Origin: Okamejei kenojei
Lineage: Eukaryota
DNA: 64,000 nucleotides
Direction of reading: 5' to 3'
Assembly (NCBI GenBank): GCA_035221665.1
Contig: JAVHYY010000154.1
Span: forward strand, 434,001-498,000
The notes below the pieces were generated by a model. The model was not told where the DNA came from, did not search any database, and was given only the letters and a program-made list of their open reading frames with translations. A program made the translations under genes and the position numbers. This document shows, piece by piece, positions 8,431 through 61,476 of the stretch (its first letter is position 1; every line of letters starts with the position of its first letter).

Positions 8431-8609
8431 ACTTTCTCTCTGTTCCCGGACTAATTGTACTTCTGTAAGTTTGAACATAATGTATTTTTGTAATATTTCT
8501 CTTTCTCTTCTTTCCCTCGCAACGTGTAATCAATCCATACGATACTACGGTTCTCGGACAGCGCCGCAGATGTTCTGCAGAGCTGTGTGCCTGTATTCCG
8601 CCACGCTGA

Positions 8610-8648
8610 GGTTTTGGTACAGCTATCTCACTGCGCGGTGTCACTGTG
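8610..8648 (-). other. 23-RSS of supporting V, cassette 1
   Basis: Heptamer CACAGTG (8642-8648), 23-nt spacer (8619-8641), nonamer ACCAAAACC (8610-8618). Confidence 0.95.
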
Positions 8649-8954
8649 CGATGCGCGGACTCATCCCACAGTAATACACAGCCTGGTCGCTCGGCAGTAC
8701 TTCAGATAGGGTTAACTGACTGATTTTCTGGCCAGGATCGAGAGAACCAGTAATACGCCCTTCGGCAGCCTCTTCCTTATCTTGCTTTCCTGAAGTGTGT
8801 CTTTGGAGCAGGAATTCCAGAGCGTGTCCTGGAAATTGTCGGTACCAGTGTACTGTGTACGAGCAGAATCCGGAATATACGCAGTTAAGAGTTGCAATGT
8901 CACCAGAAAGAGAGGATTGCTGAGGCGGACTCTGGGAACCCGCGGAAATGGAAT
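8649..8954 (-). CDS. Leaderless supporting TCR-delta-type V exon, cassette 1 (open)
   Basis: Acceptor ttctgcag then (D)SISAGSQSPP..TLNCVYSGFCSYTVHWYRQFPG..DQAVYYCGMSPRI. Canonical C/W/YYC V-set residues, extra Cys in CDR1, 3' 23-RSS, phase 1 matching the J donor at 12696. Confidence 0.92.
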
Positions 8955-12696: not shown

Positions 12697-12754
12697 CGGC
12701 TGTAACAGTCACCGTAGTCCCAGTCTCGACCTGAACGTAAGTGGCCCATGAAGT
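12697..12754 (-). CDS. NAR-TCR J segment, cassette 1 (TSWATYVQVETGTTVTVTA)
   Basis: Preceded by a 23-RSS; ends G|GTAGGT (phase-1 donor); GTTVTV J motif, with the first Gly of GxG replaced by Glu. Confidence 0.9.
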
Positions 12755-12793
12755 CACAGTGCCCCGTCTCCCGATGCTCGCAGTACAAGAACA
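12755..12793 (-). other. 23-RSS of J, cassette 1
   Basis: CACAGTG 12755-12761, 23-nt spacer, ACAAGAACA 12785-12793. Confidence 0.92.
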
Positions 12794-13085: not shown

Positions 13086-13156
13086 AGTTTTTATTCGACC
13101 CTGCTACACTGTGGATATCCCCGTCCCACACGTTGTTTCACGTCAGTTTCAAATCC
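13086..13156 (-). other. D segment, cassette 1 (13114-13128, TGGGACGGGGATATC) with 12/12 RSSs
   Basis: 3' RSS: CACAGTG (13107-13113), 12 nt, ATAAAAACT (13086-13094). 5' RSS: CACGTTG (13129-13135), 12 nt, TTCAAATCC (13148-13156; weak). G-rich core open in all three frames. Confidence 0.85.
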
Positions 13157-13480
13157 CCTGGCGCCCGACAAGTCGGGCGGGCAGGAGATTAACGTTCAGC
13201 GAATGTTTTTTTCAGATTGCATTTCCTGTAACTAGATCCCGTCTGGAGTTGTGCATTAGAAGAGTGGTCAGTCATTCTCGATGGCAGTTCGTTTACACCA
13301 TTTTCGGGAAAGGAGGCATTATCCAGCCGCATTCGCCAAATAGAGAAACCCTATTGTTTGAATCGCACGTATTTCATCCGGTACAACCTAGAATGCAGGG
13401 CAGGCGGGACAAAGCGGGACGGTGGGTTACCCCACGGATTCACCTCGCGTCTTCACGTTGTTACTAGAATCTCCCTTCAG

Positions 13481-13518: not shown

Positions 13519-13811
13519 CTTTCTCCACCTGTACTCAGCATGACAGATATAGGTGGCCATGTCCTCAACTCTCAAACCACGAATTGTCAACGTAAAGGTC
13601 TTTTTCGCTTTATTGGTCGACACAACAACCCGTCCACCTGTTCTGATCCGCTGCCGTTCAGCACCGGGTTGTGCTTGCTTGAAGAAATATCCTACTTTAA
13701 ATTCGTAGCTTCCACTGGAACCTTCCTGGAATAGGCAGGTGATTGTGAGGGGTTGGCACTCTTTTCCAGTCACCGCATTCGGGCTCTGGGTCACTGACTG
13801 ACTGAAGGTGT
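13519..13811 (-). CDS. NAR-TCR (IgNAR-like) V exon, cassette 1
   Basis: Acceptor ccacag then TFSQSVTQSPNAVTGKECQPLTITC..GYFFKQ..RIRTGGRVVVSTNKAKKTFTLTIRGLRVEDMATYICHAEYRWRK. Short FR2-CDR2 as in IgNAR V, extra FR1 Cys, 3' RSS. Confidence 0.92.
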
Positions 13812-13962
13812 CTGTGGATGAAACACAGGGAGAGGTGAGTGGGAATTTGAGGCGCACCACGGAAGAAGGATAAATCGTGGACAGTGTTTGAAATTCATGT
13901 CGGAGTGGACTCTTGTTTTATGTTAAACCCGCACTGTGTGGGAGTAGGGGACCGGTACTCAC

Positions 13963-14005
13963 GGCGTAAGCACAGTGACAGTACAAAAAACAGGAGGATT
14001 CCCAT
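13963..14005 (-). CDS. Leader exon of NAR-TCR V, cassette 1 (MGILLFFVLSLCLR)
   Basis: ATG at 14005, 43 nt, hydrophobic, donor C|GTGAGT, phase 1 in frame with the V exon. Confidence 0.9.
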
Positions 14006-14027
14006 CGCGCGTTCTCCGGAAAATAAT

Positions 14028-14270
14028 GGTTTACGTGACGAGATGTTGGAGCTCAGGTTTCCCGACAGATCCTGCCCCTGTCCCGGTGAACGTGCCGCAA
14101 CCTTGGCTGGCCCTTTCGTTTCGGTGCAGGCGGTGTTCTGGGAATTTCTGAAAATGAATGTGCGAGGAGAGGAAAGTTTGAGAAGAGGATCGTTAAATCT
14201 GCTGATTTGTTTGGTGGCCTGGCATCTGATGTGAAGCATCTGATGTGTCTCTGACGTTTCTCTGACGTTC
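14028..14270 (-). promoter_or_regulatory. Putative NAR-TCR V promoter (CRE half-sites and E-boxes)
   Basis: TTACGTGACG at 14031-14040, CATCTG E-boxes at 14223 and 14237, TGACG at 14252 and 14263. The CRE motifs and one E-box recur upstream of the other two leaders. Function is inferred. Confidence 0.4.
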
Positions 14271-14874
14271 AGTAGACCATTTGAACCATTCAGGCAACTG
14301 AACACATGGGGGTAGTAGATAGCATGAAGGCACAATCCTCTCTCCAATCGGTCAGAAGATATAGAAGTGTGCAAACTCACACTTCCAGATTTAGGGACTG
14401 TTTATTACCTGCAGTTATCAGGCAACTGAACCATCCTAACACAACTCTAGAGCCGTACTGCAATATTATCTACCTCATGAGGAAAGAACCTCCTCAACCA
14501 GAGAGTTGTGAATCTGTCGAATTCACTTCCACAGAAGACAGTGAAGGAGAATTACTGGATGCTTCAAGAAATAATTAGATTTAGCTCTTGGGGCGAAAGG
14601 AATCAAGGGATACGGGAAGTAAACAGGAACGGGGTGCTAATATTAGAGGATCATCCATAATCATATTGAATGGCGGTGCTGGCTCGAAGGGCCGAATGGC
14701 CTACTCCTGCATCGACTTTTCTGTTTCTTTGTTTCGAAATTGCTTACCCATTAAAGAAAATAAATTGTTCAATATTCAGTCTGAAGAAGGGTCTCGACCC
14801 GAAACGTCGCCTATCTCCTTCGCTCCTTAGATGCTGCTGCACCCGCTGAGTTTCTCCAGCTTTTGTGTACCCCC

Positions 14875-16490
14875 CCTGTTCAATATCCCCCTCCATCTCT
14901 TTTGGCTCTGCAGATAGCTGTCCATTCTGGCTCTCTAATGGTCCAATTTTATCCCTCGTTATTCTTTTGCTATTAATATAGCTGTAGAAACCCTTTGGAG
15001 TTACTTGCACCTTTCTTGCTAAAGCAACCCCATATCTTCTTTTAGCCTTCCTGATTTCTTTATTAAGATTCTTTTTACATTCTTTATACTCCTCTAGCAT
15101 CTCATTTACTCTATGCCTCCTATAATTATTGTAGATATCTCTCTTTTTTCGAAACGTGTCCAATTTCCCTTGAAAACCATGGCTCTTTCCAATTTTTACT
15201 ATTTCCTTTCAACTTAACAGGGACATAAAGATTCAGTACTCTTACAATTTCCCTTTAAAAAATGTCCTCCATTTCTCTTCTACATCCTTTCCCATGAAAC
15301 AAAGTGGTCCCAATTCACTCCTTTAAAATCCTTATCGCATTCCCTCAAAAGTTAGCCTTCCTGCTCAATCAAAAATCTGCACCCTAGGTCCAGTTCTGTG
15401 GAGGTGGTCTACGCTCTCATAATTTATTTTGAAACTAATGGTATTGTCACTTGATGAGAACATATGCCATTTTATTTTTATTTTTATATTTTTTATATAT
15501 TATAGTATTAACACCTGATGGAGATTAGTATTGCTCACAAAAGCATACCGAAGATCCGTCACCTGACCCTCCTCATTTCCTAGCAGGAGGAGAATCCAGC
15601 CACTGCCGTACGTGACTTTCTCTGGTCGATACCTCTATGTATCTGCTGCAAAAACTATCCTGCACACAATTTTGCAAACTGCAAACCATCCAGCCATTAA
15701 CGGAATGTGTTTTCCCAGTCTATTTTGAAAATTGAAATTCTCCCACAATCACTACCTTGTGCTTACTCGAATATGTGCTATCTCCTAATATATTTGCTAT
15801 TACAATTCTCGCTCCCCATTTGGCGGTCTACAATACACCCCAGATGTGTTGCTACACGTACCCACTTCTACTGTTCCACCCAAATAGCCTCCCTAGAACC
15901 CGAGTCTAACTATCCGTGCCAAAGCACTGCTGTAATATCCTTTCTGACAAGCATGCAACACCTCCAACCTCCTGGTCCCCCAATTCTATCTCACGTACAT
16001 CCTGAAGCAACGAAATCCTGGAATATTTAGTTTGTTTCACAATCCCAGCCCCTCCTGCAACCTTGTTTCATTGATTGCCACATCCCTGCCGCATCATATT
16101 TATCCAGGTGATAAATCCAGCTTGCTAAGTTTCATCCACACTTTCTTACAATGCTGCTAGCATTAAAATATACACATTTTAGAAACCGCACATCCCTTAT
16201 TCTCTGTCTATTATCTTTTTCCTGTAGGGGGGGGGGGGGGGGGGGGTATTTTAATTGTTTTGGGGTTTTTTTTTTTGTTTTCCCCCGCCCTCGCCTACAT
16301 ATTGTGTCCGAATGCTTAGAACCCTTCTCTGCCTCTTGCCCCAGCACCCCTGTCCCCTTGCCCCCCCCCCCCCCATTGGACCCCTAGAGTCCCTCCCCTG
16401 GCCTTTCTTAAAAAATAAGGGATTGATAAGTAAAAACTTCCCAGTAGCCTTTGCAAATCTCCCTGCCAGGATATTGGGGTCCCCCTCGAA
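14875..16490 (-). mobile_element. CR1 fragment (APE/ORF2 part), indel-rich
   Basis: Colinear with 4968-6345, with many indels. Confidence 0.85.
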
Positions 16491-16789
16491 TATAAAATGT
16501 ATATAAGTAACATTTTCTTGCTACGTGAGCATGTATATCCATGAACTACAACGTGCGAGGAAATTTGGGCCGAGAGACCGATTATCGGAACAGCTAATAC
16601 GTAGCTCAGATCAAGAGTCGCATAAAGAGGAACAAGGAGATTGCAATTTAGGCAGCGGTAGAGGCCGGGCGATTTTTTTATTGGGCGCTTGTGTTGGGGG
16701 GCGCTGTCACTGAGCTGCGTTTTTAACTCGTTCGGTGATATAATTTTTTTTTTCTGGAATAGGGTTCAGATAAAGGAACTGCAACAAGA

Positions 16790-17140
16790 AACAAGGCTGG
16801 CAGCATCAGCAAGGACCCATACCATCCTGGTCACACACTCATCTCCCCACTAACGTCAGGTAGAAGGAACAGGAGCCTGAAGACTGCAGCGTCCAGGCTC
16901 AGAAATAGCCGCTTCCCCACTGCCATCAGGCTATTAAACTCAACTGAAATAAATCTCTGAACACTAATGGACAAGTTATCTGTTTATTTTGCAGCATTTA
17001 TCTGCTTATTTATGATGTGTGTATATATTTTATATAATGGCATTATGGACTCACTGATATGATTTGTTCTGTATTCGTGCTATTATATTCTGTTGTGCTG
17101 ATGGCAAAGCAAGATTTCATTGTCCTATCTGGCACATATT
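16790..17140 (+). mobile_element. Rex1/Babar-like LINE 3' end
   Basis: AGSISKDPYHPGHTLISPL..SGRR; matches the longer copy at 57650-57990. Confidence 0.75.
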
Positions 17141-17834
17141 AAATAAATTCTCTTGGACGTCCATATTTGATCCAATTCGACTGTTTTCTCTCTTTTGTTC
17201 TGTCTTTCCCCAAAACGCCACTTTTCGGAGATATATCCGACCCTGTGTGACCTGTGTGACCAGTGGATATGCTGAAATGCCTGTCATGCGTCGCGCTCTC
17301 TCCCTGTTATCGCTGTTTGGAAACGCGACTAGAAAAGGTACAGCACTCGCCGGCAATTTTCACTGGCGTCGTTGGGATAGTTTGAGATTTGCAAATCCAT
17401 GGCTCACTGTGTGTCTGTTGGAAATGTCGCCAAGGGGGGGGAGGGGGGGGGGGGGGTGCAATGATGTGATTTTGATATTACATGGGCAAACAATAGATGG
17501 TATATTAAAACATGTGTAAGTAATGTCCCCAGGGGTGTAACTCGTCGCCTGTTTTCTCTTTTATTTTCTTTATAAATATGCCAGATATTGGTTTGTTTCG
17601 CTGACAACCCCTTAGCGGCTCCACCAGGCGTGATCGCCTGGACTTTCGCATTAAAATGCACGGTATTCCGATCGAGGAAAAAATAGGACTTGTCTATTAT
17701 CCGATTCTGGCAGCAATCGGTTTACCGGGTAGGTAATTGTCGGCACATTTCATGGAACCAACAATGAATGTTTGAAAAGCGCAGAGTATTAAAGGTTAAG
17801 TGAACATACCGAATAGTCCAGCAGGAGCTAGAGC

Positions 17835-18028
17835 GCACGGTGGCGCAGCACTAGAGTAGTTATCTTACAGCGCTTGTCTGTACGGAGTGTGTGCGTTCTA
17901 CCCGTTACCTTTTGGGTTTTCCCAGATACCTTCGGTTTCCTCCACACTCCATAAAAGTGAAATACATTGTCCCTTGTGTGCGCCAGCTTGTGTTAGTGTG
18001 CGCGCTGTATCCCTAAACTAAAACGAAA
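17835..18028 (+). mobile_element. Degenerate tRNA-SINE in the GPCR intron (paralogue at about 58657-58850)
   Basis: cacggtggcgcagc head, V-domain-like core, ctaaa tail. Confidence 0.65.
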
Positions 18029-18839
18029 CATGGAATTTACATTCTTGGAGCGAAGAAGCGCGTTTGTATATTTGATGTATGCTGCTCAGCGAAGCTAGCA
18101 GAAATGTAGGTCCTTCACGGACGTTTTACTAAAATCAATGCCGGTCGTGAGCATGCACTGTTGCGAAGTGAAGGGCAACCTGGTCCTCGCTGTGAGTGCA
18201 GTTTCTATTCCACTGTTCGTTCTCATTCGGCAGAACGAGAAATACACCCGTCCAGTAATTTGGCACTGCATTTTGTGTATCGCTCTTAAATTCTCATAGC
18301 AATAATTTCGTTGGGACAGATTTGAAGGTCATACGAACAACCTGCTCCAGTGAAAACAAAGAACTAGTTAACTCAGTCAGTCTTGCAGCATCTCTGGAGG
18401 ACGGACGCAGTCGACGTATCGGTTTGGGATCATTTTTCCGATCGGATTCTGAAGAACGGGCTCGAGATGATACATCGCCTATGTATGTCGTCCAAAGATA
18501 TGGCTTGCGCCACTGACACACTCCAGCACTTGGTCTTGTCAGGTACAGTACGGAAGTCCGCCGGCTGTTCGGCAGAAAATACCTGCCTAAATGTTGTTAG
18601 CCGTGTTTGTGAAGCGTGTTTGTAATTATATTTGCAATGCTTCACTGAACCCATTTCCTTGGTCTCATGTTCGGAAATGCATTCTTGAAGGTCCAATGGA
18701 AAACAAATCCTGTTAATCCAGACCACGATTGACTCAATGCCCCGATGCAAAAGTTGCTCAGGTCTCAGCAATAGAAACGACACTGCGCATTTGAATTTAC
18801 CGTTGTAAAAGTTAAATCAAATATTTGATATTGGAAGGG

Positions 18840-19070
18840 TAGAAACATAGAAACATAGAAATTAGGTGCAGAGTAGGCCATTCAGCCCTTCGAGCCTGCA
18901 CCGCCATTCAATATGAAAGTCATGGCTGATCATCCCAATCAGTATTCCCGTACCTGCCGTCTCTCCATACCCTCTGATCCCCTTAGCCACAAGGGCCACA
19001 ATCCAACTCACTCTTAAATATAGCCAATGAACTGGCCTCAACTACCCTCTGTGGCAGAGAGTTCCAGAGC
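18840..19070 (-). mobile_element. CR1 3'-end insertion specific to cassette 1
   Basis: (tagaaaca)n tail plus CR1 3'UTR; absent at the equivalent sites near 37165 and 59652. Confidence 0.8.
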
Positions 19071-20950
19071 TCATCCCTCTTAGTTCTGATTTGATCGACG
19101 GTAATTTGGATTGTTAATTTCATTTTTAGATACACTGACTGACCTGTTGAAAATGTTCTATATTTTACATCAAAATCAAACTATTTGCATAATGTTGTGA
19201 AGATTAGTACAAACGGCAATCCAACTAATTTTGGTAAATAGGATCATAATAATTTTCAGATTACATTTCTGTTTACCAAAATTGGATTGCCTTTTGTCCT
19301 ACTATTTCCATCTTCATGTCCTTCTCTTTTCATCTTCATGTCTACATAAGGCAATCCCACTAATTTTGGAAATCACGTATTTAATAATTTACTGATTGAA
19401 CTTCTTTCTGGCAAACGAATGACGGATGATTGTCCCAAATATTAATTCGTTAAATAAATAGTCTCTACTACTAGCGACACAGGGTTAAATTACTCAGTCA
19501 GCTCCCTTCCACCAGCCCGTACACCACACAATTAATTAATTTCTGTTTTCATTCTTTCCCAGTGAATGTAATGGCGATTTTGATCTTGTCCCGTGGCACG
19601 TGCGGATTTTCCAAGTGCATCACTCGTTACATGGTAGCCATGGCTTCCGCTGATCACTCTGTGATTCTCTGTGAAGTGATACTTCACAGGATTGCTGATC
19701 TTTATTGGTGGCATGCTTCCTTGCCCTACACTCCTTTCTGCAAAATAACGATCTTCCTGGCATCCGTCACGGTGAATTGTTCTGTATGGTTCACAGATAC
19801 TTTCACTTTTGATCGCTTTGTTGCGATCTCTACTCAGAACATGAAAATTAAATATTGCACCGATAGAACCGCGTCGATTGTTATCCTGACAGTGATCCCA
19901 TTCGTCTGCATCAAAAACCTACCCTTGCCCTTTCCCTACGTTCCTTATCCCGGATTGGGTAGACCGCATGGCTGCCGCAAACATGACCATTTTTACATGC
20001 GTCGGGAATGGATGTTGTTCTCTTGGACCGAACAGTTGTTCACCCCGGCGGTACCATTCTGCCTGATTTTGTTTGTTTAACAAAAAAAAAAACGCTCACC
20101 GTCAGACGTATTTTCGTGGCCAGTCGAATCCGCAGGAATCTCCGAGAACTCAGGGTGGGGGTGAAAAGAAAGACCAGGAGATATTGAACCGCAGACGGTC
20201 GGTCGTTTTACTTCTGGCAATCTCGAGCTGCTTCATCCTCCTCTGGACCACAAGTGGCACATTTTATAGCGTATTGGAAGTTTGAAAGTGTTTATGCGCA
20301 AGGCCTGGACAGACTATGTGGGTGGATTGGAAAGGGTTGGATTTATGCTTCAGCTACTGAGCTCCTGCACCAACACGGCGATTTACACCGTGGACATAGA
20401 GCTAGATCAGAGAGGAGCTGTTCCGTGTGCTAACTTATCCGGTCACTTGCACTGGAAAGATATTTAAAATCGGGAAAGTGTAAGTTACAATAATATAACA
20501 ACAACGAGTGGACCAGCTGGCTTCATGCGTTGCTTTGCTGTAGGGTTAAATGTGAAAAGATAGCATTTTAATGTGTGGACATTTTATGTCCATTCGCCCT
20601 GTCGGGCATGCCTACCTGCTTAGTAGGTTCATGGGGTCAATTTAGTCGCACCTCTTGTACGTTTCATCATGTGCCCCCGCTCAATCATTCAACTCTGTGT
20701 TTTCATGAATATGTATACATATGCCTGGAACTTATTGTTTTCAAAACGAGCGAAGATTTTTAGTTGAATAGGTGCAACGGGTTGTATTTATGATTTCCTT
20801 TCATCATTGAAAACACGTATCATTGCACATTAACGAGGTTTTCGGTTTAAAGCGGATCTGCTGTTTTAGCAGCGGGTGATCTAGATTTTGTAAAGTTCCA
20901 TACAGATACCGTGCTTAACATACGTTCACTATGGGGAAGACCTATATCGA

Positions 20951-29637: not shown

Positions 29638-29955
29638 CGATGCGCGACTCATCCCACAGTAATAAACAGCCTGGTCGCTCGGCAGTACTTCAGATAGCGT
29701 TAACCGACTGATTTTTCTGGCCAGGATCGATAGAACCGGCGGGTAGTAATACGACCTTCGGCAGCCTCTTCCTTATCTGGCTTTCCTGAAGTGTGTCTTT
29801 GATCCAGTAGAATTCCAGAGATTGCCCTGGGAACTGTCGGTACCAGTGTATTGTGTACGAGCAAATTCCGGAATATACGCAGTTAAGAGTGACAATGTGT
29901 CACCAGAAAAGAGAGGTTAGTTTAGGTGGACTCTGGGATCCCGCGGAAATGGAAT
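29638..29955 (-). pseudogene. Supporting TCR-delta-type V, cassette 2 (frameshifted as assembled)
   Basis: Homologous to 8649-8954; acceptor tctacag and heptamer (29631-29637) kept. Several indels (7-nt insertion near 29738, +2 near 29896, +1, -1); 24-nt spacer and shortened nonamer. Confidence 0.85.
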
Positions 29956-33205: not shown

Positions 33206-33302
33206 CGGCTGTGACAGTCACCGTAGTCCCCGTCCCCTCTTGATGGTAAGTGGCCCATGAAGCCACAGTGCCCCGTCTCTCGATGCTCGCAATACAAGAA
33301 CA
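33206..33302 (-). CDS. NAR-TCR J, cassette 2 (33206-33263, ASWATYHQEGTGTTVTVTA) with 23-RSS
   Basis: CACAGTG 33264-33270, 23 nt, ACAAGAACA 33294-33302; donor G|GTAAGT. Confidence 0.92.
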
Positions 33303-33603
33303 GTTTTCACCTCGATTTACCCGGCAACCACGAGACTCGCTGTCCAATTATTCCAGGAGTTTCAGACCAACCAGTAACTGTCCTTGCTCCCCAACCCTCG
33401 CTGCGTTCCCGCTAAGAAACAGAGCTAAGAGCAGAGTGATCCCGCACGCAGGCTGGTGTGCTTTGACAAACACGGAACCAGTTATTAAGGAATGCTAACG
33501 GAATGTGGTAATCCCTATGCAATTTAACTGGACTACAGCGTCACGAACAACAATCGTTTGATTTTGTTTCCGGAACCCAAGAACATAAATGTTGAATGGG
33601 GTG

Positions 33604-33674
33604 AGTTTTTATTCGACTCTCCTACACTGTGGATATCCCATTGTCACACGTTGTTCCACGTCACTTTCAAATCC
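33604..33674 (-). other. D segment, cassette 2 (33632-33646, TGACAATGGGATATC) with 12/12 RSSs
   Basis: Heptamers 33625-33631 and 33647-33653, 12-nt spacers, nonamers 33604-33612 and 33666-33674. Confidence 0.85.
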
Positions 33675-34036
33675 CCTGGCGCCCGACGAGTCGGGCGGGC
33701 AGGAGATTAACGTTCAGCGAATGCATTTTTCAGATTGCATTTTCTGTAACTGGATCCCGTCTGGAGTTGTGCATCAGAAGAGTGGTCAGTCATTCTCGAT
33801 GGCAGTTCGTTTACATCATTTTCGGTAAAGGGGGCGTTATCCAGCCGCACTCGCCAAATAGAGAAACCCCATTGTTTGAATCGCACGCATTTCATCCGGT
33901 ACAACCTAGAATGCAGGGCAGGCGGGACAAAGCGGAACCGTGGGTTACCCGGTGGATTCACCTCACGTCTTCACGTTGCTACTAGAATCTGCCGTCAGAG
34001 TTTTTGTATTGCTGGAACCGCACTCCCATCACTGTG

Positions 34037-34329
34037 CTCTCTCCACCTGTACTCAGCTTGACAGATATAGGTGGCCGTGTCCTCAACTCTCAAACCACGA
34101 ATTTTCAACGTAAAGGTCTTTTGCGCTTTATTGGTCGACACAACAACCCCTCCACCTGTTCTGATCCGCTGCCGTTCAGCACCGGGTTGTGCTTGCTTGA
34201 AGAAATATCCTACATTAAATTGGTAGCTGCCACTGGAACCTTCCTGGAATAGGCAGGTGATTGTGAGGGGTTGGCACTCTTTTCCAGTCACCGCATTCGG
34301 GCTCTGGGTCACTGACTGAGTGAAGGTGT
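34037..34329 (-). CDS. NAR-TCR V exon, cassette 2
   Basis: Open 293-nt exon (..GKECQPLTITC..EDTATYICQAEYRWRE). RSS CACAGTG 34030-34036, 22 nt, ACAAAAACT 33999-34007. Confidence 0.92.
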
Positions 34330-34483
34330 CTGTGGATGAAACACAGGGAGAGGTGAGTGGGAATTCGAGGCGAACCACGGAAGAAGGATAAATCGCGGAC
34401 AGTGTTTGAAATTCAGGTCGGAGTGGACTCGAGTTGTTTTATGTTAAACCCGCACTGTGTGGGAGTAGGGGACCGGTACTCAC

Positions 34484-34526
34484 GGCGTAAGCACAGTGAC
34501 AGTAGAAAAAAAAGTGGGATTCCCAT
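34484..34526 (-). CDS. Leader exon, cassette 2 (MGIPLFFLLSLCLR)
   Basis: ATG at 34526, 43 nt, GTGAGT donor. Confidence 0.9.
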
Positions 34527-37637: not shown

Positions 37638-38511
37638 TGAATCTGATGGCGATTGTGATCCCGTCCCGTGGCAAGTGCGGCCTTTCCAAGTGCATCACTT
37701 GTTACATGGTAGCCATGGCGACCGCGGACCTTCCTGTGATTTTCTGTGAAGTGATATTTCACCGGATTGCTGATATGTATTGGTGGCATGCTTCCTTGCC
37801 CTACACTCCGGTGTGCAAAATAACGATCTACCTGGCATCCGTCACGGTGAATTCTTCTGTATAGTTCACAGTCGCTTTCACCTTTGATCGCTTTGTTGCG
37901 ATTTCTACTCAGAAAATGAAAACCAAATATTGCACCGAGAGATCCGCGTCGATTGTTATCCTGACAGTGATACCATTCGTCTGCCTTAAAAACCTACGCT
38001 TGCCCTTTGCATAAACTTCTTAGCCTGAAACTCGTAATTGGTCTACATTCATCCCGAATGGATGGTGTTCTCTTGGATCGAACAGTTGTTCACCCCGGTG
38101 ATTCCATTCTGCCTGATTTTGTTGTTTAACGCGCTCACCGTCAGGCGTATTTCTGTTGCCAGTCGGGTCCGCAGGAGTCTCCGGGACATCAGGGGTGGGG
38201 AGAAAAAAAAAGACCAGGAGATGGTGAACAGCAGACGTTGGTTTGTTTTACTTCTAGCAATTTCTAGCTGCTTCATCCTTCTCTGGGTTGCACATTTTAT
38301 TGCGGTTCGAAGTTTGAAACTCTTTGTGTAAAAGGCATGGAAAAACTCTGCAGAAGAATTGGAAAGGGCTGGATTGATGCTTCAGTTGCTGAGCTCCTGC
38401 ACCAACACGGCCATTTACAGCGTGACACAGAGCAAGTTCAGAGAGGAGCTGTACCGTGTGCTAACATATCCGATCCGTTGCACTGGAAAAATAATTAAAT
38501 CGGTAAAGTGA
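37638..38511 (+). pseudogene. GPR139-like GPCR exon 2, cassette 2 (exon 1 not found)
   Basis: Acceptor ttccag; NLMAIVIPSRGKCGLSKCITCYMVAMATADL. TAG at 37862 and later stops/deletions. Ancestral-looking C-terminus TQSKFREELYRVLTYP..SVK-TGA. Confidence 0.85.
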
Positions 38512-48762: not shown

Positions 48763-48931
48763 TAATGTATTTTTGTAGTCTCTCTTTCTCTTCTTTCCCT
48801 CGCAACGTGCAATCAATCCATACGACACTGAGGTTCTCGGATAGCGCCGCAGATGTTCTGCAGAGCTGTGTGCCTGTATTCCGCCACGCTGAGGTTTTGG
48901 TACAGCTATCTCACTGCAATATGTCACTGTG

Positions 48932-49237
48932 CGATGCGCGGACTCATCCCACAGTAATACACAGCCTCGTCGCTCGGCAGTACTTCAGATAGCGTTAACT
49001 GACTGATTTTCTGGCCAGGATCGAGAGAACCAGTAATACGACCTTCGGCAGCCTCTTCCTTATCTTGCTTTCCTGAAGTGTGTCTTTGAAGCAGGAATTC
49101 CAGAGCCTGCCCTGCGAATTGCCGGTACCAGTGTACTGTGTACGAGCAGAATCCGGAATATACGCAGTTAAGAGTGACAGTGTCACCAGAAAGAGAGGAT
49201 TGTTTAGGCGGACTCTGCGAACCCGCGGAAATTGAAT
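48932..49237 (-). CDS. Leaderless supporting TCR-delta-type V exon, cassette 3 (open)
   Basis: Acceptor ttctgcag; ..TLNCVYSGFCSYTVHWYRQ..DEAVYYCGMSPRI. RSS CACAGTG 48925-48931, 23 nt, ACCAAAACC 48893-48901. Confidence 0.92.
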
Positions 49238-52927: not shown

Positions 52928-53018
52928 CGGCTGTGACAGTCACCGTAGTCCCCGTCCCCTCCTGATAGTAAGCCACAGCCACAGTGCCCCGTCTCTCGAT
53001 GCTCGCTGTACAAGAACA
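52928..53018 (-). CDS. NAR-TCR J, cassette 3 (52928-52979, AVAYYQEGTGTTVTVTA) with 23-RSS
   Basis: CACAGTG 52980-52986, 23 nt, ACAAGAACA 53010-53018; donor G|GTAAGT. Confidence 0.92.
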
Positions 53019-53326
53019 GTTCTCACCCCCATTTGCCCGGCAACCACAAGACTCGCTGACCAATTATTCCAGGAGTTTCAGACCAACCAGTAACTGTCCT
53101 TGCTCCCCAATCCTCGCTGGATCGACCGGTTTCCGCTAAGAAACAGAGCTAAAAGCAGAGTGATCCCCACGCAGGCTGGTGTGCTTTGACAAACACGGAA
53201 CCAATTATTAAGGAATGTTAAGGGAATGTGGTAATCCCTATGCAATTTAACTGGACTACAGCGTCACGAACAACACTCGATTGATTTTGGTTTCGGAACC
53301 CAAGAACATATATCTTGAATGGGGTA

Positions 53327-53397
53327 AGTTTTTATTCGACTCTCCTACACTGTGGATAATCCAGTCCCACACGTTGTTTCACGTCACTTTCAAATCC
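53327..53397 (-). other. D segment, cassette 3 (53355-53369, TGGGACTGGATTATC) with 12/12 RSSs
   Basis: Heptamers 53348-53354 and 53370-53376, 12-nt spacers, nonamers 53327-53335 and 53389-53397. Confidence 0.85.
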
Positions 53398-53760
53398 CCA
53401 GGCGCCCGACAAGTCGGGCGGGCAGGAGATTAACGTTCAGCGAATGTTGTTTTTCAGATTGCATTTTCTGTAACTAGATCCCGTCTGGAGTTGTGCATTA
53501 GAAGAGTGGTCAGTCATTCTCGATGGCAGTTCGTTTACACCATTTTCAGGAAAGGAGACATTATCCAGTCGCATTCGCCAAATAGAGAAACCCCATTGTT
53601 TGAATCGTACGCATTTCAACCGGTACAACCTAGAATGCAGGGCAGGCGGGACAAAGCGGGACGGTGGGTTACCCGGCGGATTCACCTCGCGTCTTCACGT
53701 TGTTACTGGAATCTCCCTTCAGGGTTTTTGTATTGCTGGAACCGCAGACCCATCACTGTG

Positions 53761-54053
53761 GTTTCTCCACCTGTATTCAGCTTGACAGATATAGGTGGCG
53801 ATGTCGTCAACTGTCAAAGCACGGATTTTCAACGTAAAGGTCTTTTTCGCTTTATTGGTCGACACAACAACCCGTCCACCTGTTCTGATCCGCTGCCGTT
53901 CAGCACCGGGTTGTGCTAGCTTGAAGAAATGTCCTACATTAAATTCGTATCTGCCACTGGAACCTTCCTGGAAAAGGCAGGTGATTGTGAGGGGTTGGCA
54001 CTCTTTTCCAGTCACCGCATTCGGGCTCTGGGTCACTGACTGACTGAAGGTGT
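53761..54053 (-). CDS. NAR-TCR V exon, cassette 3
   Basis: Open 293-nt exon. Consensus heptamer and nonamer: CACAGTG 53754-53760, 22 nt, ACAAAAACC 53723-53731. Confidence 0.92.
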
Positions 54054-54207
54054 CTGTGGATGAAACACAGGGAGAGGTTAGTGGGAATTCGAGGCGCACC
54101 ACGGAAGAAGGAAAAATCGCGGACAGTGTTTGAAATTCAGGTTGGAGTGGACTCTCGTTGTTTTATGTTCAACCCGCACTGTGTGGGAGTAGGGGCCCGG
54201 TACTCAC

Positions 54208-54250
54208 GGCGTAAGCACAGTGACAGTACAAAATACAGGAGGATTCCCAT
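54208..54250 (-). CDS. Leader exon, cassette 3 (MGILLYFVLSLCLR)
   Basis: ATG at 54250, 43 nt, GTGAGT donor. Confidence 0.9.
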
Positions 54251-58476: not shown

Positions 58477-61010
58477 ATGCATGGCATTCCGATCGAGGAA
58501 AAAATAGGACTTGTGTATTATCCGATTCTGGCAGCAATCGGTTTACCTGGTAGGTAATTGTCGGCACATCTCATGGAACCAACAAAGACTGTTTGAAAAG
58601 CGCAGAGTATTAAAGGTTAAGAGAACATACCGAATAGTCCAGCAGGAGTTCGGGCGGCACGGTGGCGCAGCACTAGAGTAGTTATCTTACAGCGCTTGTC
58701 TGTACGGAGTATGTGCTTTCTCCCCGTTACCTTCAGGGTTTTCCCAGATATCTTCGGTTTCTTCCACACTCCATAAAAGTAAAATACATTGTCCCTTGTG
58801 CGCGTCAGCTTGTGTTAGTGTGCGCGCTGTATCCCTAAACTAAAACGAAACAAGGAATATACATCTTTGGAGCGAAGAAGCGCGTTGGTATATCTGATGT
58901 ATTCCGCTCAGCGAAGCTGGCAGAAATGTAGCCTTCACGGCGTTTTACTAAAATAAATGCCCATACATGCACAGCTGCGAAGTGAAGGGCAACCTGGCCC
59001 TCGCTGTGAGTGGCAGTTTCTGTTCCACTGTTCGTTCTCATTCGGCAGAACGAGAAATACACCCGTCCAGTAATTTGGCACTGCATTTTGTGTATCGCTC
59101 TTAAATTCTCATAGCAATAATTTCTGTGGGACAGATTTGAAGGTCATACGAACAACCTGCTCCAGTGAAAACAAAGAACTAGTTAACTCAGTCAGTCTTA
59201 CGGCATCCCTGGAGGACCGACGCAGTCGACGTATCGGTTTGGGATCAATCTTCCGATCGGATTCTGAAGAAGGGGCCCGAGATGATACATCGCCTATGTA
59301 TGTCGTCCAGAGATATGGCTTGCGCCACTGAGATAGTCCAGCACTTGGTCTTGTCAGGTACAGTACGGAAGTCCGCCCGCTGTTCGGCAGAAAATACCTG
59401 CCTAAATGTTGTTAGCCGTGGTTGTGAAGGGTGTTTGTAATTATATTTGCAATGCTTCACTGAACCCATTTCCTTGGTCTCATGTTCGGAAATGCATTCT
59501 CCAAGGTCCAATGGAAAACAGACCCCGTTAATCCAGACCACGATTGACTCAATGCCCCGATGCAAAAGTTGCTCACGTCTCAGCAATACAAACGACACTG
59601 CGCATTTGAATTAACCGTTCTAAAAGTTAAATCAAATATTTGATATTGGAAGGATCCCCGGTAATTTGGATTGTTAATTTCATTTTTAGATACACTGACT
59701 GACCTCTTGAAAATGTTCAATATATTACATCAAAATCAAAGGATTTGCATAATGTTGTGAAGATTAGTACAAAAGGCAATCCCACCTATTTTGGTAAACA
59801 GGATTATAATCATTTGCAGATTACATTTCTGTTTACCAAAATTGGATTGCCTTTTATCCTACTATTTCCATCTTCATGTCCTTCTCTTTCCATCTTCATG
59901 TCTACATAAGGCGATTCCATTAATTTTGGTAGTCACGAATTTAATAATTTACGGATTGAACTTCTTTCTGGCAAACGAATGACGGATGATTGTCCCAAAT
60001 ATCAATTCGTTAAATAAATAGTATCTACTACTAGCGACACATGGTTAAATTACTCAGTCAGCTACCTCCCACCAGCCCGTACACCACACAATTAATTAAT
60101 TTCAGTGAATGTAATGGCAATTTTGATCTTGCCCCGTGGCAAGTGCGGCCTTTCCAAGTGCATCACTCGTTACACGGTAGCCATGGCTTCCGCCGACCTC
60201 TCTGTGATTCTGTGAAGTGATATTTCACTGGGTTGCTGATCTGTATTGGTGGCATGCTTCCTTGCCCTACACTCCTGTCTGCAAAATAACGATCTTCCTG
60301 GCATCCGTCACGGTGAATTGTTCTGTATGATTCACAGTCGCTTTCACTTTTGATCGCTTTGTTGCGATCTCAACTCAGGGCATGAAAACTAAATATTGCA
60401 CCGAGAGAACCGCGTCGATTGTTATCCTGACAGTGATCCCATTCGTCTGCATCAAAAACCTACCCTTGCCCTTTCCCTACGTTCCTTATCCCGGATTGGG
60501 TAGACCGCATGCCTGCCGCAAACTTGTCCATTTTTACTTGCGTCGGGAATGGATGGTGTTCTCTTGTATCGAACAGTTGTTCACCCAGGCGATACCATTC
60601 TGACTGATTTTGTTGTTTAACACGCTCACCGTCAGACGTATTTTCGTGGCCAGTCGAATCCGCAGGAATCTCCGAGACCTCAGCGGTGGGGTGGAAAAGA
60701 AAGACCAGGAGATATTGAACCGCAGACGGTCGGTCGTTTTACTTCTGGCAATCTCGAGCTGCTTCTTCCTCCTCTGGACCACACGTGTGGCACATTTTAT
60801 AGCGTATCGAAGTTTGAAAGTGTTTATGCGCAAGGCCTGGACAGACTATGTGGGTGGATTGGAAAGGGTTGGATTTATGCTTCAGCTACTGAGCTCCTGC
60901 ACCAACACGGCGATTTACACCGTGACATAGAGCTAGATCAGAGAGGAGCTGTTCCGTGTGCTAACTTATCCGGTCACTTGCACTGGAAAGATATTTAAAT
61001 CGGTAAAGTG
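58477..61010 (+). pseudogene. GPR139-like GPCR, cassette 3 (exon 1 58477-58549; exon 2 from 60106)
   Basis: Exon 1 encodes the same protein as in cassette 1. Exon 2 has lost its polypyrimidine tract and has a 2-nt deletion near 60210, TGA at 60328 and 60601, TAG at 60928 and 60934. Confidence 0.88.
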
Positions 61011-61476
61011 TAAGTTACAATAATATAACAACAACGAGTGACCAGCTGGCTTCATGCGTTGCTTTGCTGTAGGGTTTATGTGAAAAGATAGCATTTAATG
61101 TGTGGACATTTTATGTCCATTCGCCCTGTCGGGCACGCCTACCTGCTTAGTAGGTTCATGGGGTCAATTTAGTCGCACCTCTTGTATGTATCATCATGTG
61201 CCCCGCTCAATCATTCAACTCTGTGTTTTCATGCATATGTATACATATGCCTGGAACTTATTGTTTTCAAAACGAGCGAAGATTTTTAGTTGAATAGGTG
61301 CAACGGGTTGTATTTATGATTTCCTTTCATCATTGAAAACACGTATCATTGCACATTAACGAGGTTTTCGGTTTAAAGCGAATCTGCTGTTTTAGCAGCG
61401 GGTGATCTAGATTATGTAAAGTTCCATACAGATACCGTGCTTAACATACGTTCACTATGGGGAAAACTTATATCGA

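What the first reader, a model, noticed from the sequence alone, without database searches (positions are those of the whole stretch)
13963..20483. A GPR139-like GPCR is co-duplicated head-to-head with every antigen-receptor cassette
Seen: a two-exon 7TM gene (YYP-L-AIGLP|VN..SRGKCGLSKC..FDRF..SSCTNT.IY) starts about 3.7-4.2 kb from the leader ATG in divergent orientation in cassettes 1 and 3; its exon 2 is also present in cassette 2. Established: non-immune passengers occur in mammalian TCR loci (olfactory receptors at TRA/TRD, trypsinogens in TRB). I know of no description of a NAR-TCR plus GPR139-like duplicon. Inference: the unit of amplification is V-D-J-V plus GPCR. Deletional joining of an upstream supporting V would somatically excise the intervening GPCR copies, and the two genes may share upstream regulatory DNA.
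Basis: partly seen in the sequence, partly recalled or inferred. Interest (0 to 1): 0.72.

Follow-up and report, generated by a model that had tools for sequence, protein, structure and literature searches.

The report
Passenger receptors in skate T-cell cassettes
In this skate, a gene from a family of hundreds of unstudied cell-surface receptors sits back-to-back with a special T-cell-receptor gene cassette and was copied along with it several times, but all three receptor copies here are broken, so it is most likely a hitch-hiking neighbour rather than a working part of the immune receptor.

Summary
The window holds three NAR-TCR cassettes inside a skate TRA/TRD locus, each with a divergently oriented 'GPR139-like' GPCR 3.1-4.2 kb upstream.

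Co-duplication holds. All 13 assessable young NAR units in the fetched contigs have such a neighbour, the GPCRs form one clade found only on these contigs, and V and GPCR distances correlate (Mantel r 0.68, p 0.015, 6 non-redundant pairs). Adjacent RefSeq accessions suggest the same neighbourhood in two other skates and a sawfish.

A functional link is unsupported. All three window GPCRs are pseudogenes; copies 1 and 3 share two stop codons, so a dead gene was copied. Partners decay independently, 11 of 23 clade members have no cassette, and no shared intergenic element is conserved. The family has at least 394 motif matches genome-wide, with equally dense clusters elsewhere. Somatic excision follows from the geometry but applies to any gene between V and D. 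Expression could not be tested.

Best reading: a passenger amplified by tandem duplication, like olfactory receptors in mammalian TRA/TRD. This scan noted similar interleaving on other shark and skate DNA (e1-8587776, e1-9188581, e1-9500982, e1-9161493).

The parts
8649..8954 (-). Cassette 1 supporting (leaderless) V-delta exon, intact, followed by a 23-RSS (heptamer at 8648)
12697..12793 (-). Cassette 1 NAR J with its 23-RSS and splice donor
13086..13160 (-). Cassette 1 D segment with 3' 12-RSS (heptamer 13113); 5' RSS degenerate and not picked up by the scan; bounds approximate
13519..13811 (-). Cassette 1 NAR-TCR V exon, intact; RSS with 22-bp spacer from 13518
13963..14005 (-). Cassette 1 leader exon
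17656..17728 (+). GPCR copy 1 exon 1 (N-terminus and TM1)
19563..20483 (+). GPCR copy 1 exon 2, pseudogene: 5 frameshifts and two stops after TM7 shared with copy 3; end approximate
29638..29955 (-). Cassette 2 supporting V, frameshifted, 24-bp RSS spacer
33206..34526 (-). Cassette 2 leader, NAR V (34037-34329), D (heptamer 33631) and J; frames open
37638..38505 (+). GPCR copy 2, exon 2 only, pseudogene (2 stops, 2 frameshifts, ECL2 deletion, exon 1 lost); end approximate
48932..49237 (-). Cassette 3 supporting V, intact, 23-RSS
52928..54250 (-). Cassette 3 leader, NAR V (53761-54053), D (heptamer 53354) and J; frames open
58477..58549 (+). GPCR copy 3 exon 1
60106..61015 (+). GPCR copy 3 exon 2, pseudogene (4 stops, 1 frameshift); end approximate

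Best explanation
Three NAR-TCR cassettes of a skate TRA/TRD locus each carry a broken, divergently oriented class A GPCR gene that was duplicated together with them and is most likely a passive passenger. Shown: the arrangement, the lesions, one GPCR clade confined to the NAR-TCR contigs, and matching V and GPCR distances. Inferred: a member of a several-hundred-copy chondrichthyan GPCR family already lay beside the NAR-TCR array in an early batoid. In skates, unequal crossing-over then copied 20-90 kb blocks that contained both, and each partner has since been kept or lost on its own (birth-and-death). Intact members of the clade show dN/dS below 1, so they likely work as receptors in their own right, with unknown ligand and tissue. 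A supporting-V to D-delta join would delete downstream cassettes and GPCRs in that T cell as a by-product.
For: Locus identity: J-alpha array, C-delta, J-delta and D-delta lie on the same contig and strand; the V domains align with NAR-TCR models. Co-duplication: 13 of 13 assessable young NAR units have a head-to-head GPCR remnant 2-11 kb upstream. One clade (SH-aLRT 100, quick tree) holds 22 skate copies from C241, C176, C586, C592, C988, C189 and C1102 plus 2 Amblyraja and 2 Leucoraja proteins. Mantel r is 0.86 for 9 pairs and 0.68 for 6 non-redundant pairs, exact p 0.015. Passenger status: 3 of 3 window copies are broken and only 8 of 23 clade copies are lesion-free. Copies 1 and 3 share two stops and have dN/dS 1.4, against 0.47-0.76 among 6 intact copies. 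Decay is reciprocal: live cassette with dead GPCR (c1, c3), live GPCR with dead cassette (C176:657k/663k, whose leader ATG is lost; C988:112k/125k), and both dead (c2, C176:618k/628k). 11 of 23 copies are unpaired. No shared intergenic block. The family is large: 394 exact motif matches against 1 control match, and 150 of 1,868 candidates scored, all at E below 2e-29.
Against: The neighbourhood looks old. GPCR and NAR-TCR RefSeq models share a contig and have adjacent accessions in Leucoraja (XP_055522161 GPCR, 162 NAR-TCR, 163 GPCR, on a 208-kb scaffold), Amblyraja (GPCR 424 and 447 among NAR-TCR 419-426 and 444-449) and Pristis (GPCR 913, NAR-TCR 915 and 926). Long persistence could mean selection. 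One lineage (c4, C586, C592:53k) probably has both partners intact. The assembly has many indels between near-identical contigs (125 gap openings in 28 kb), so single frameshifts overstate decay; the shared and independent stop codons are not explained by this. Cassette 2's V and GPCR fall in different groups in the two trees, so the blocks also recombine.
Confidence: 0.8

Rival explanations
1. The family is an immune or leukocyte receptor family that clusters in antigen-receptor regions because it shares their chromatin domain or enhancers; the one-to-one pairing is incidental but the regional linkage is selected.
For: At least three GPCR subfamilies lie within the TRA/TRD contigs. One subfamily (5 intact copies at C241:338-404k plus 2 on C176) has dN/dS 0.10-0.23 between distant copies, one close pair 0.49. 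24 listed motif hits surround two IgNAR-like loci on C15, at 55.3-57.6 Mb. Hits also overlap C1-domain clusters on C30 and C10. The linkage appears in three other batoids.
Against: Equally dense clusters on C20 and C5 have no C1-set hit among the 150 listed. None of the top 120 of 2,312 GPCR homologues lies on a shark NAR-TCR contig. The term was absent from the searched supplements of two shark immune single-cell papers, which is weak evidence because gene naming may differ. Large gene families commonly share repeat-rich regions (general knowledge).
Confidence: 0.13
2. The pair is a coupled unit: a bidirectional promoter, or the TCR-delta enhancer brought close by rearrangement, switches on the GPCR upstream of the chosen NAR V and gives clone-specific receptor expression.
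For: Orientation is divergent and spacing is 3.7-4.2 kb in several pairs. The own-cassette GPCR is retained on rearrangement while downstream ones are deleted (geometry). One lineage probably has both partners intact.
Against: The intact cassettes 1 and 3 have dead GPCRs, and intact GPCRs sit beside dead cassettes. Spacing varies from 2 to 11 kb, with repeats in between. The GPCR-proximal conserved block is the same in unpaired copies. Amblyraja has four consecutive NAR-TCR accessions (419-422) with no GPCR model between them.
Confidence: 0.05
3. The repeated units are largely assembly artefacts: uncollapsed haplotypes and indel errors.
For: C241:498-526k and C586 are 98.9% identical over 28 kb with 125 gap openings, and C1102, C189 and C988 share 95-98% blocks. 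One copy has 18 frameshifts.
Against: The three window units are only 80-94% identical, too divergent to be alleles or errors. Stop codons arise by substitution and two are shared. Independent assemblies of other skates show the same neighbourhood.
Confidence: 0.02

Closest known systems
NAR-TCR cassette of cartilaginous fishes (Criscitiello 2006, not held; known here from passages of PMC1845163, PMC6795676 and PMC12227049)
   Same: Leader, IgNAR-like V, D and J, followed by a leaderless supporting V-delta with the CDR1 cysteine, inside TRA/TRD.
   Different: Here each young cassette has a GPCR gene upstream. No GPCR is mentioned in the main text or the two supplements of PMC12227049 or in the main text of PMC1845163.
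Olfactory receptor genes within mammalian TRA/TRD (human OR10G2 and OR4E2; mouse Olfr1507-1509; passages of PMC4574546)
   Same: Class A GPCR genes of a large birth-and-death family lie among rearranging V segments and can be somatically deleted.
   Different: They are a different GPCR family. The mammalian ones are 2-3 genes at the 5' end, whereas here the GPCR was amplified with the cassette and several subfamilies run through the V region.
Trypsinogen genes in the TRB locus (recalled, not checked in any call)
   Same: Non-immune genes embedded in, and duplicated within, a TCR locus.
   Different: Protease genes at a different locus.
RefSeq 'probable G-protein coupled receptor 139' models of sharks and rays; human GPR139 (PDB 7vug, 9m42)
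   Same: Intact relatives score up to 80-82% identity with skate models of that name; 2,312 homologues at E <= 1e-10; Pfam 7tm_1.
   Different: Similarity to human GPR139 is weak, 28 bits, the same as to 5-HT2A, so the name is a label and not shown orthology. This is a family of several hundred copies.

Membership tests
NAR-TCR cassette | IgNAR-like V with leader, lacking the W of WYRQ, with an extra A-B loop cysteine | tested here: met
   Leader and V intact in 3 of 3 window cassettes; 'GKECQ' and 'GYFFKQ' motifs; VNAR structures fill most of the top PDB hits (features)
NAR-TCR cassette | Own D and J with 12/23-compatible signals | tested here: met
   V RSS (22-bp spacer), D 3' 12-RSS and J 23-RSS in all three cassettes; D 5' RSS is degenerate
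NAR-TCR cassette | Leaderless supporting V-delta with CDR1 cysteine and 23-RSS, upstream of D-delta, J-delta and C-delta | tested here: met
   'SGFCSY' motif, splice acceptor and RSS; intact in c1 and c3, frameshifted in c2; D-delta, J-delta and C-delta on the same strand
NAR-TCR cassette | Expressed doubly rearranged transcript | not tested
Class A (rhodopsin) GPCR | 7tm_1 domain with DRY-like and NPxxY-like motifs | tested here: met
   Intact paralogue C176:657k matches PF00001 at E 6e-16, with DRF and NTAIY
Functional GPCR gene (window copies) | Open two-exon reading frame | tested here: not met
   0 of 3 window copies are open
GPR139 orthologue | High, specific similarity to vertebrate GPR139 | tested here: inconclusive
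   28 bits, E 1.4e-5, level with 5-HT2A; no tree with true GPR139 or GPR142 was built
One-to-one NAR-TCR + GPCR duplicon | Each cassette has a GPCR and each GPCR has a cassette | tested here: not met
   13 of 13 young NAR units are paired, but 11 of 23 clade GPCRs are unpaired and the older cassettes are unpaired
Bidirectional-promoter gene pair | Shared conserved intergenic element | tested here: not met
   Two separate proximal blocks; the middle is not conserved
Bidirectional-promoter gene pair | Coordinated divergent transcription | not testable with these tools
   No RNA holder was listed

The most novel reading that the evidence does not exclude
An undescribed, several-hundred-member GPCR family is embedded in the batoid antigen-receptor complex, and NAR-TCR rearrangement both deletes some members and brings the head-to-head member of the chosen cassette under the TCR-delta enhancer. 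V(D)J recombination would then set a clone-specific GPCR repertoire on gamma-delta T cells.
Probability: 0.05. Interest if true: 0.85.

Novelty: new variant of a known kind. Interest (0 to 1): 0.36.

Why it matters
As a passenger, the GPCR is a useful marker: it traces the duplication history of skate NAR-TCR cassettes and flags that a large unstudied GPCR family runs through the chondrichthyan TRA/TRD-IgNAR region, in the position that olfactory receptors take in mammals. I found no description of this in the papers I searched. If T cells expressed the paired receptor according to V choice, recombination would be controlling a non-antigen receptor, which would be a major surprise; present evidence leans against that.

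Tried and rejected
Expression: no RNA holder was listed for an intact paired copy. The three same-label runs, contigs only and possibly DNA, covered just short conserved or repeat pieces. This says nothing about expression.

Homologue search: NAR V alone found nothing. The representatives search and an alignment query did.

Literature: 'GPR139' + 'shark' gave 4 unrelated papers, seen as listings only. 'coupled receptor 139' + 'cartilaginous' gave 0. Searches were seen as listings. Criscitiello 2006 is not held. The catshark atlas supplement was too large to read and may hold expression data for the family. Supplements of PMC11372145 (4 files), PMC10529500 (1 file) and PMC10115646 (3 of 4 files) had no hit for the name. 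Most subscription papers on the nurse-shark TRA/TRD locus are outside the library.

A PDB search could not tell C-delta from C-alpha. I assigned C-delta from its position between the J-alpha array and the J and D segments and from its similarity to shark models.

Rejected: a shared conserved promoter block, strict one-to-one pairing, and a pure assembly artefact.

Tree limits: the careful search did not finish, so one search is the quick tree (SH-aLRT only). One copy with 18 frameshifts was left out, 6 short fragments were dropped before the count, and only 41 of the 120 listed homologues and 20 distant genomic copies were included. The place of the Pristis and Hypanus proteins within the batoid clade is unresolved. 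Whether the Hypanus best hit lies on its TRA/TRD chromosome was not determined. C1102 beyond 80 kb was not fetched.
Full report
1. What is in the window. The window is G000:C241:434,001-498,000. The nearest named homologues are from skates. It holds three minus-strand cassettes of leader, V, D, J and a second leaderless V. The first V hits shark VNAR structures. Both V domains align with NAR-TCR models from a sawfish and several sharks and carry the features described in passages of PMC1845163. Cassettes 1 and 3 are open throughout; cassette 2 has a frameshifted supporting V. Further down the same contig and strand lie two D-delta segments (258.2k, 258.6k), J-delta, a C-delta with its TM exon (235.7-237.7k) and a J-alpha array (152-198k). 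So this is the TRA/TRD locus itself.

2. The GPCR. A two-exon class A GPCR lies on the plus strand upstream of each cassette. ATG-to-ATG distances are 3,651 and 4,227 bp for cassettes 1 and 3; cassette 2 keeps exon 2 only. All three copies are pseudogenes. Copies 1 and 3 share two stop codons just after TM7, and their dN/dS is 1.4 (37 nonsynonymous against 9 synonymous differences, somewhat inflated near frameshifts). Six intact relatives give 0.47-0.76. The gene was therefore already damaged when units 1 and 3 were copied. The stops at codon 76 in copies 2 and 3 differ (TAG and TGA) and are independent. An intact paralogue matches Pfam 7tm_1 and RefSeq 'probable GPR139' models, but matches human GPR139 no better than 5-HT2A.

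3. How far the pairing goes. I fetched the contigs holding the closest GPCR and NAR V hits. Of 14 young NAR units, 13 could be assessed and all 13 have a divergent GPCR remnant 2-11 kb upstream. These GPCRs form one clade (SH-aLRT 100, quick tree) whose skate members come only from those contigs. NAR promoter-leader-V distances correlate with GPCR distances (Mantel r 0.86 for 9 pairs; 0.68, exact p 0.015, for 6 non-redundant pairs), with cassette 2 discordant. Co-duplication is real, but it reflects one ancestral adjacency, and several contigs are near-duplicates of each other.

4. Why it looks like a passenger. Only 8 of 23 clade copies are lesion-free and 11 of 23 have no cassette. On C988 the block is about 90 kb with four GPCRs and one decayed cassette that lacks its supporting V. 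Fates are uncoupled: live cassette with dead GPCR (c1, c3), live GPCR with dead cassette (C176:657k/663k, C988:112k/125k), both dead (c2, C176:618k/628k), and both probably alive in one lineage (c4, C586, C592:53k). Single frameshifts may be assembly errors, given 125 gap openings in 28 kb between two near-identical contigs. Older NAR-TCR cassettes (C176:510k, C988:432k, C3) have no head-to-head GPCR. Between the two ATGs, conservation is limited to two separate proximal blocks, and the GPCR block is equally conserved in unpaired copies. The family is very large: 394 exact motif matches against 1 control match, with dense clusters on C20, C5, C30 and C15.

5. Other species. I had no genomes for them, so this rests on contig lengths and RefSeq accession order. 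Best GPCR hits and NAR-TCR models share a contig in Leucoraja (208 kb; accessions 161 GPCR, 162 NAR-TCR, 163 GPCR), Amblyraja (GPCR 424 and 447 among ten NAR-TCR models, 419-449) and Pristis (GPCR 913, NAR-TCR 915 and 926). Accession order follows LOC order in these rows, and LOC order follows position within runs of V genes in Table S1 of PMC12227049, so adjacency is likely but orientation and distance are unknown. Rhinoraja shares a contig too, but with a different subfamily and distant accessions. None of the top 120 of 2,312 GPCR hits lies on a shark NAR-TCR contig; other subfamilies could. In the stingray sheet, LOC numbers 689-700 are all V genes, which is weak evidence against pairing there. 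The neighbourhood is thus probably batoid-old, and the paired amplification skate-specific.

6. Somatic excision. The supporting V 23-RSS faces the D-delta 12-RSS about 184 kb away from cassette 1, so joining would be deletional. It would remove downstream cassettes, their GPCR pseudogenes, and five intact GPCRs of another subfamily at C241:338-404k. The GPCR upstream of the chosen cassette would be kept. This is inference from geometry and is ordinary for any gene between V and D.

7. Known context. Olfactory receptor genes lie among human, mouse and sheep TRAV genes (passages of PMC4574546). The recent description of the elasmobranch antigen-receptor complex lists NAR-TCR but no GPCR (PMC12227049: section 6, term searches of the main text and both supplements, Table S1 read in full). 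My searches found no paper on the linkage or on the family. Earlier notes of this scan report the family and similar interleaving on other DNA; they are unchecked AI notes and agree with the passenger reading I had recorded before opening them.

8. Verdict. The window's receptors are dead, and nothing shows a functional tie to the T-cell receptor. New variant of a known kind; interest 0.36.

Noticed in passing
G000:C241:297,200-310,300 (L168-L169): An inverted minicluster inside TRD: IgH-like V with an RSS, one J with a 12-RSS and no D signal found between them, a second delta-like C exon and a TM exon; a related V lies at 281.7k on the other strand.
   Followed up: partly
G000:C241:318,000-405,000; C176:553-615k: An older GPCR subfamily inside TRA/TRD: 5 intact copies on C241 and 2 on C176, with dN/dS 0.10-0.23 between distant copies. 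These are better candidates for function than the cassette-linked clade, and the C241 copies would be deleted by any upstream V-to-D-delta join.
   Followed up: partly
G000:C15:55.3-57.6 Mb: 24 listed family motif hits surround two loci with a NAR-like V and several C1 exons (IgNAR-like).
   Followed up: no
G000:C3:34.89 Mb and 35.6-35.7 Mb: Orphon NAR V and supporting V pseudogenes among sister-clade GPCRs on a large chromosome, suggesting that a piece of TRA/TRD moved; C20, C5 and C43 clusters belong to the same batoid GPCR clade as C176 copies.
   Followed up: partly
window 8600-8648 and 48880-48931: The supporting-V RSS spacer in cassette 1 contains a second heptamer-like sequence; earlier notes of this scan describe stacked RSSs behind supporting Vs.
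   Followed up: no
window 13925-13940, 34459, 54183: A perfect heptamer with a 12-spacer, weak-nonamer site lies in the leader-V intron (scan hits at 34459 and 54183; heptamer visible in cassette 1).
   Followed up: no
G000:C1102 (L077-L084): Duplicated exon-1 copies about 750 bp upstream of two GPCR genes; no NAR V in the 80 kb fetched.
   Followed up: no
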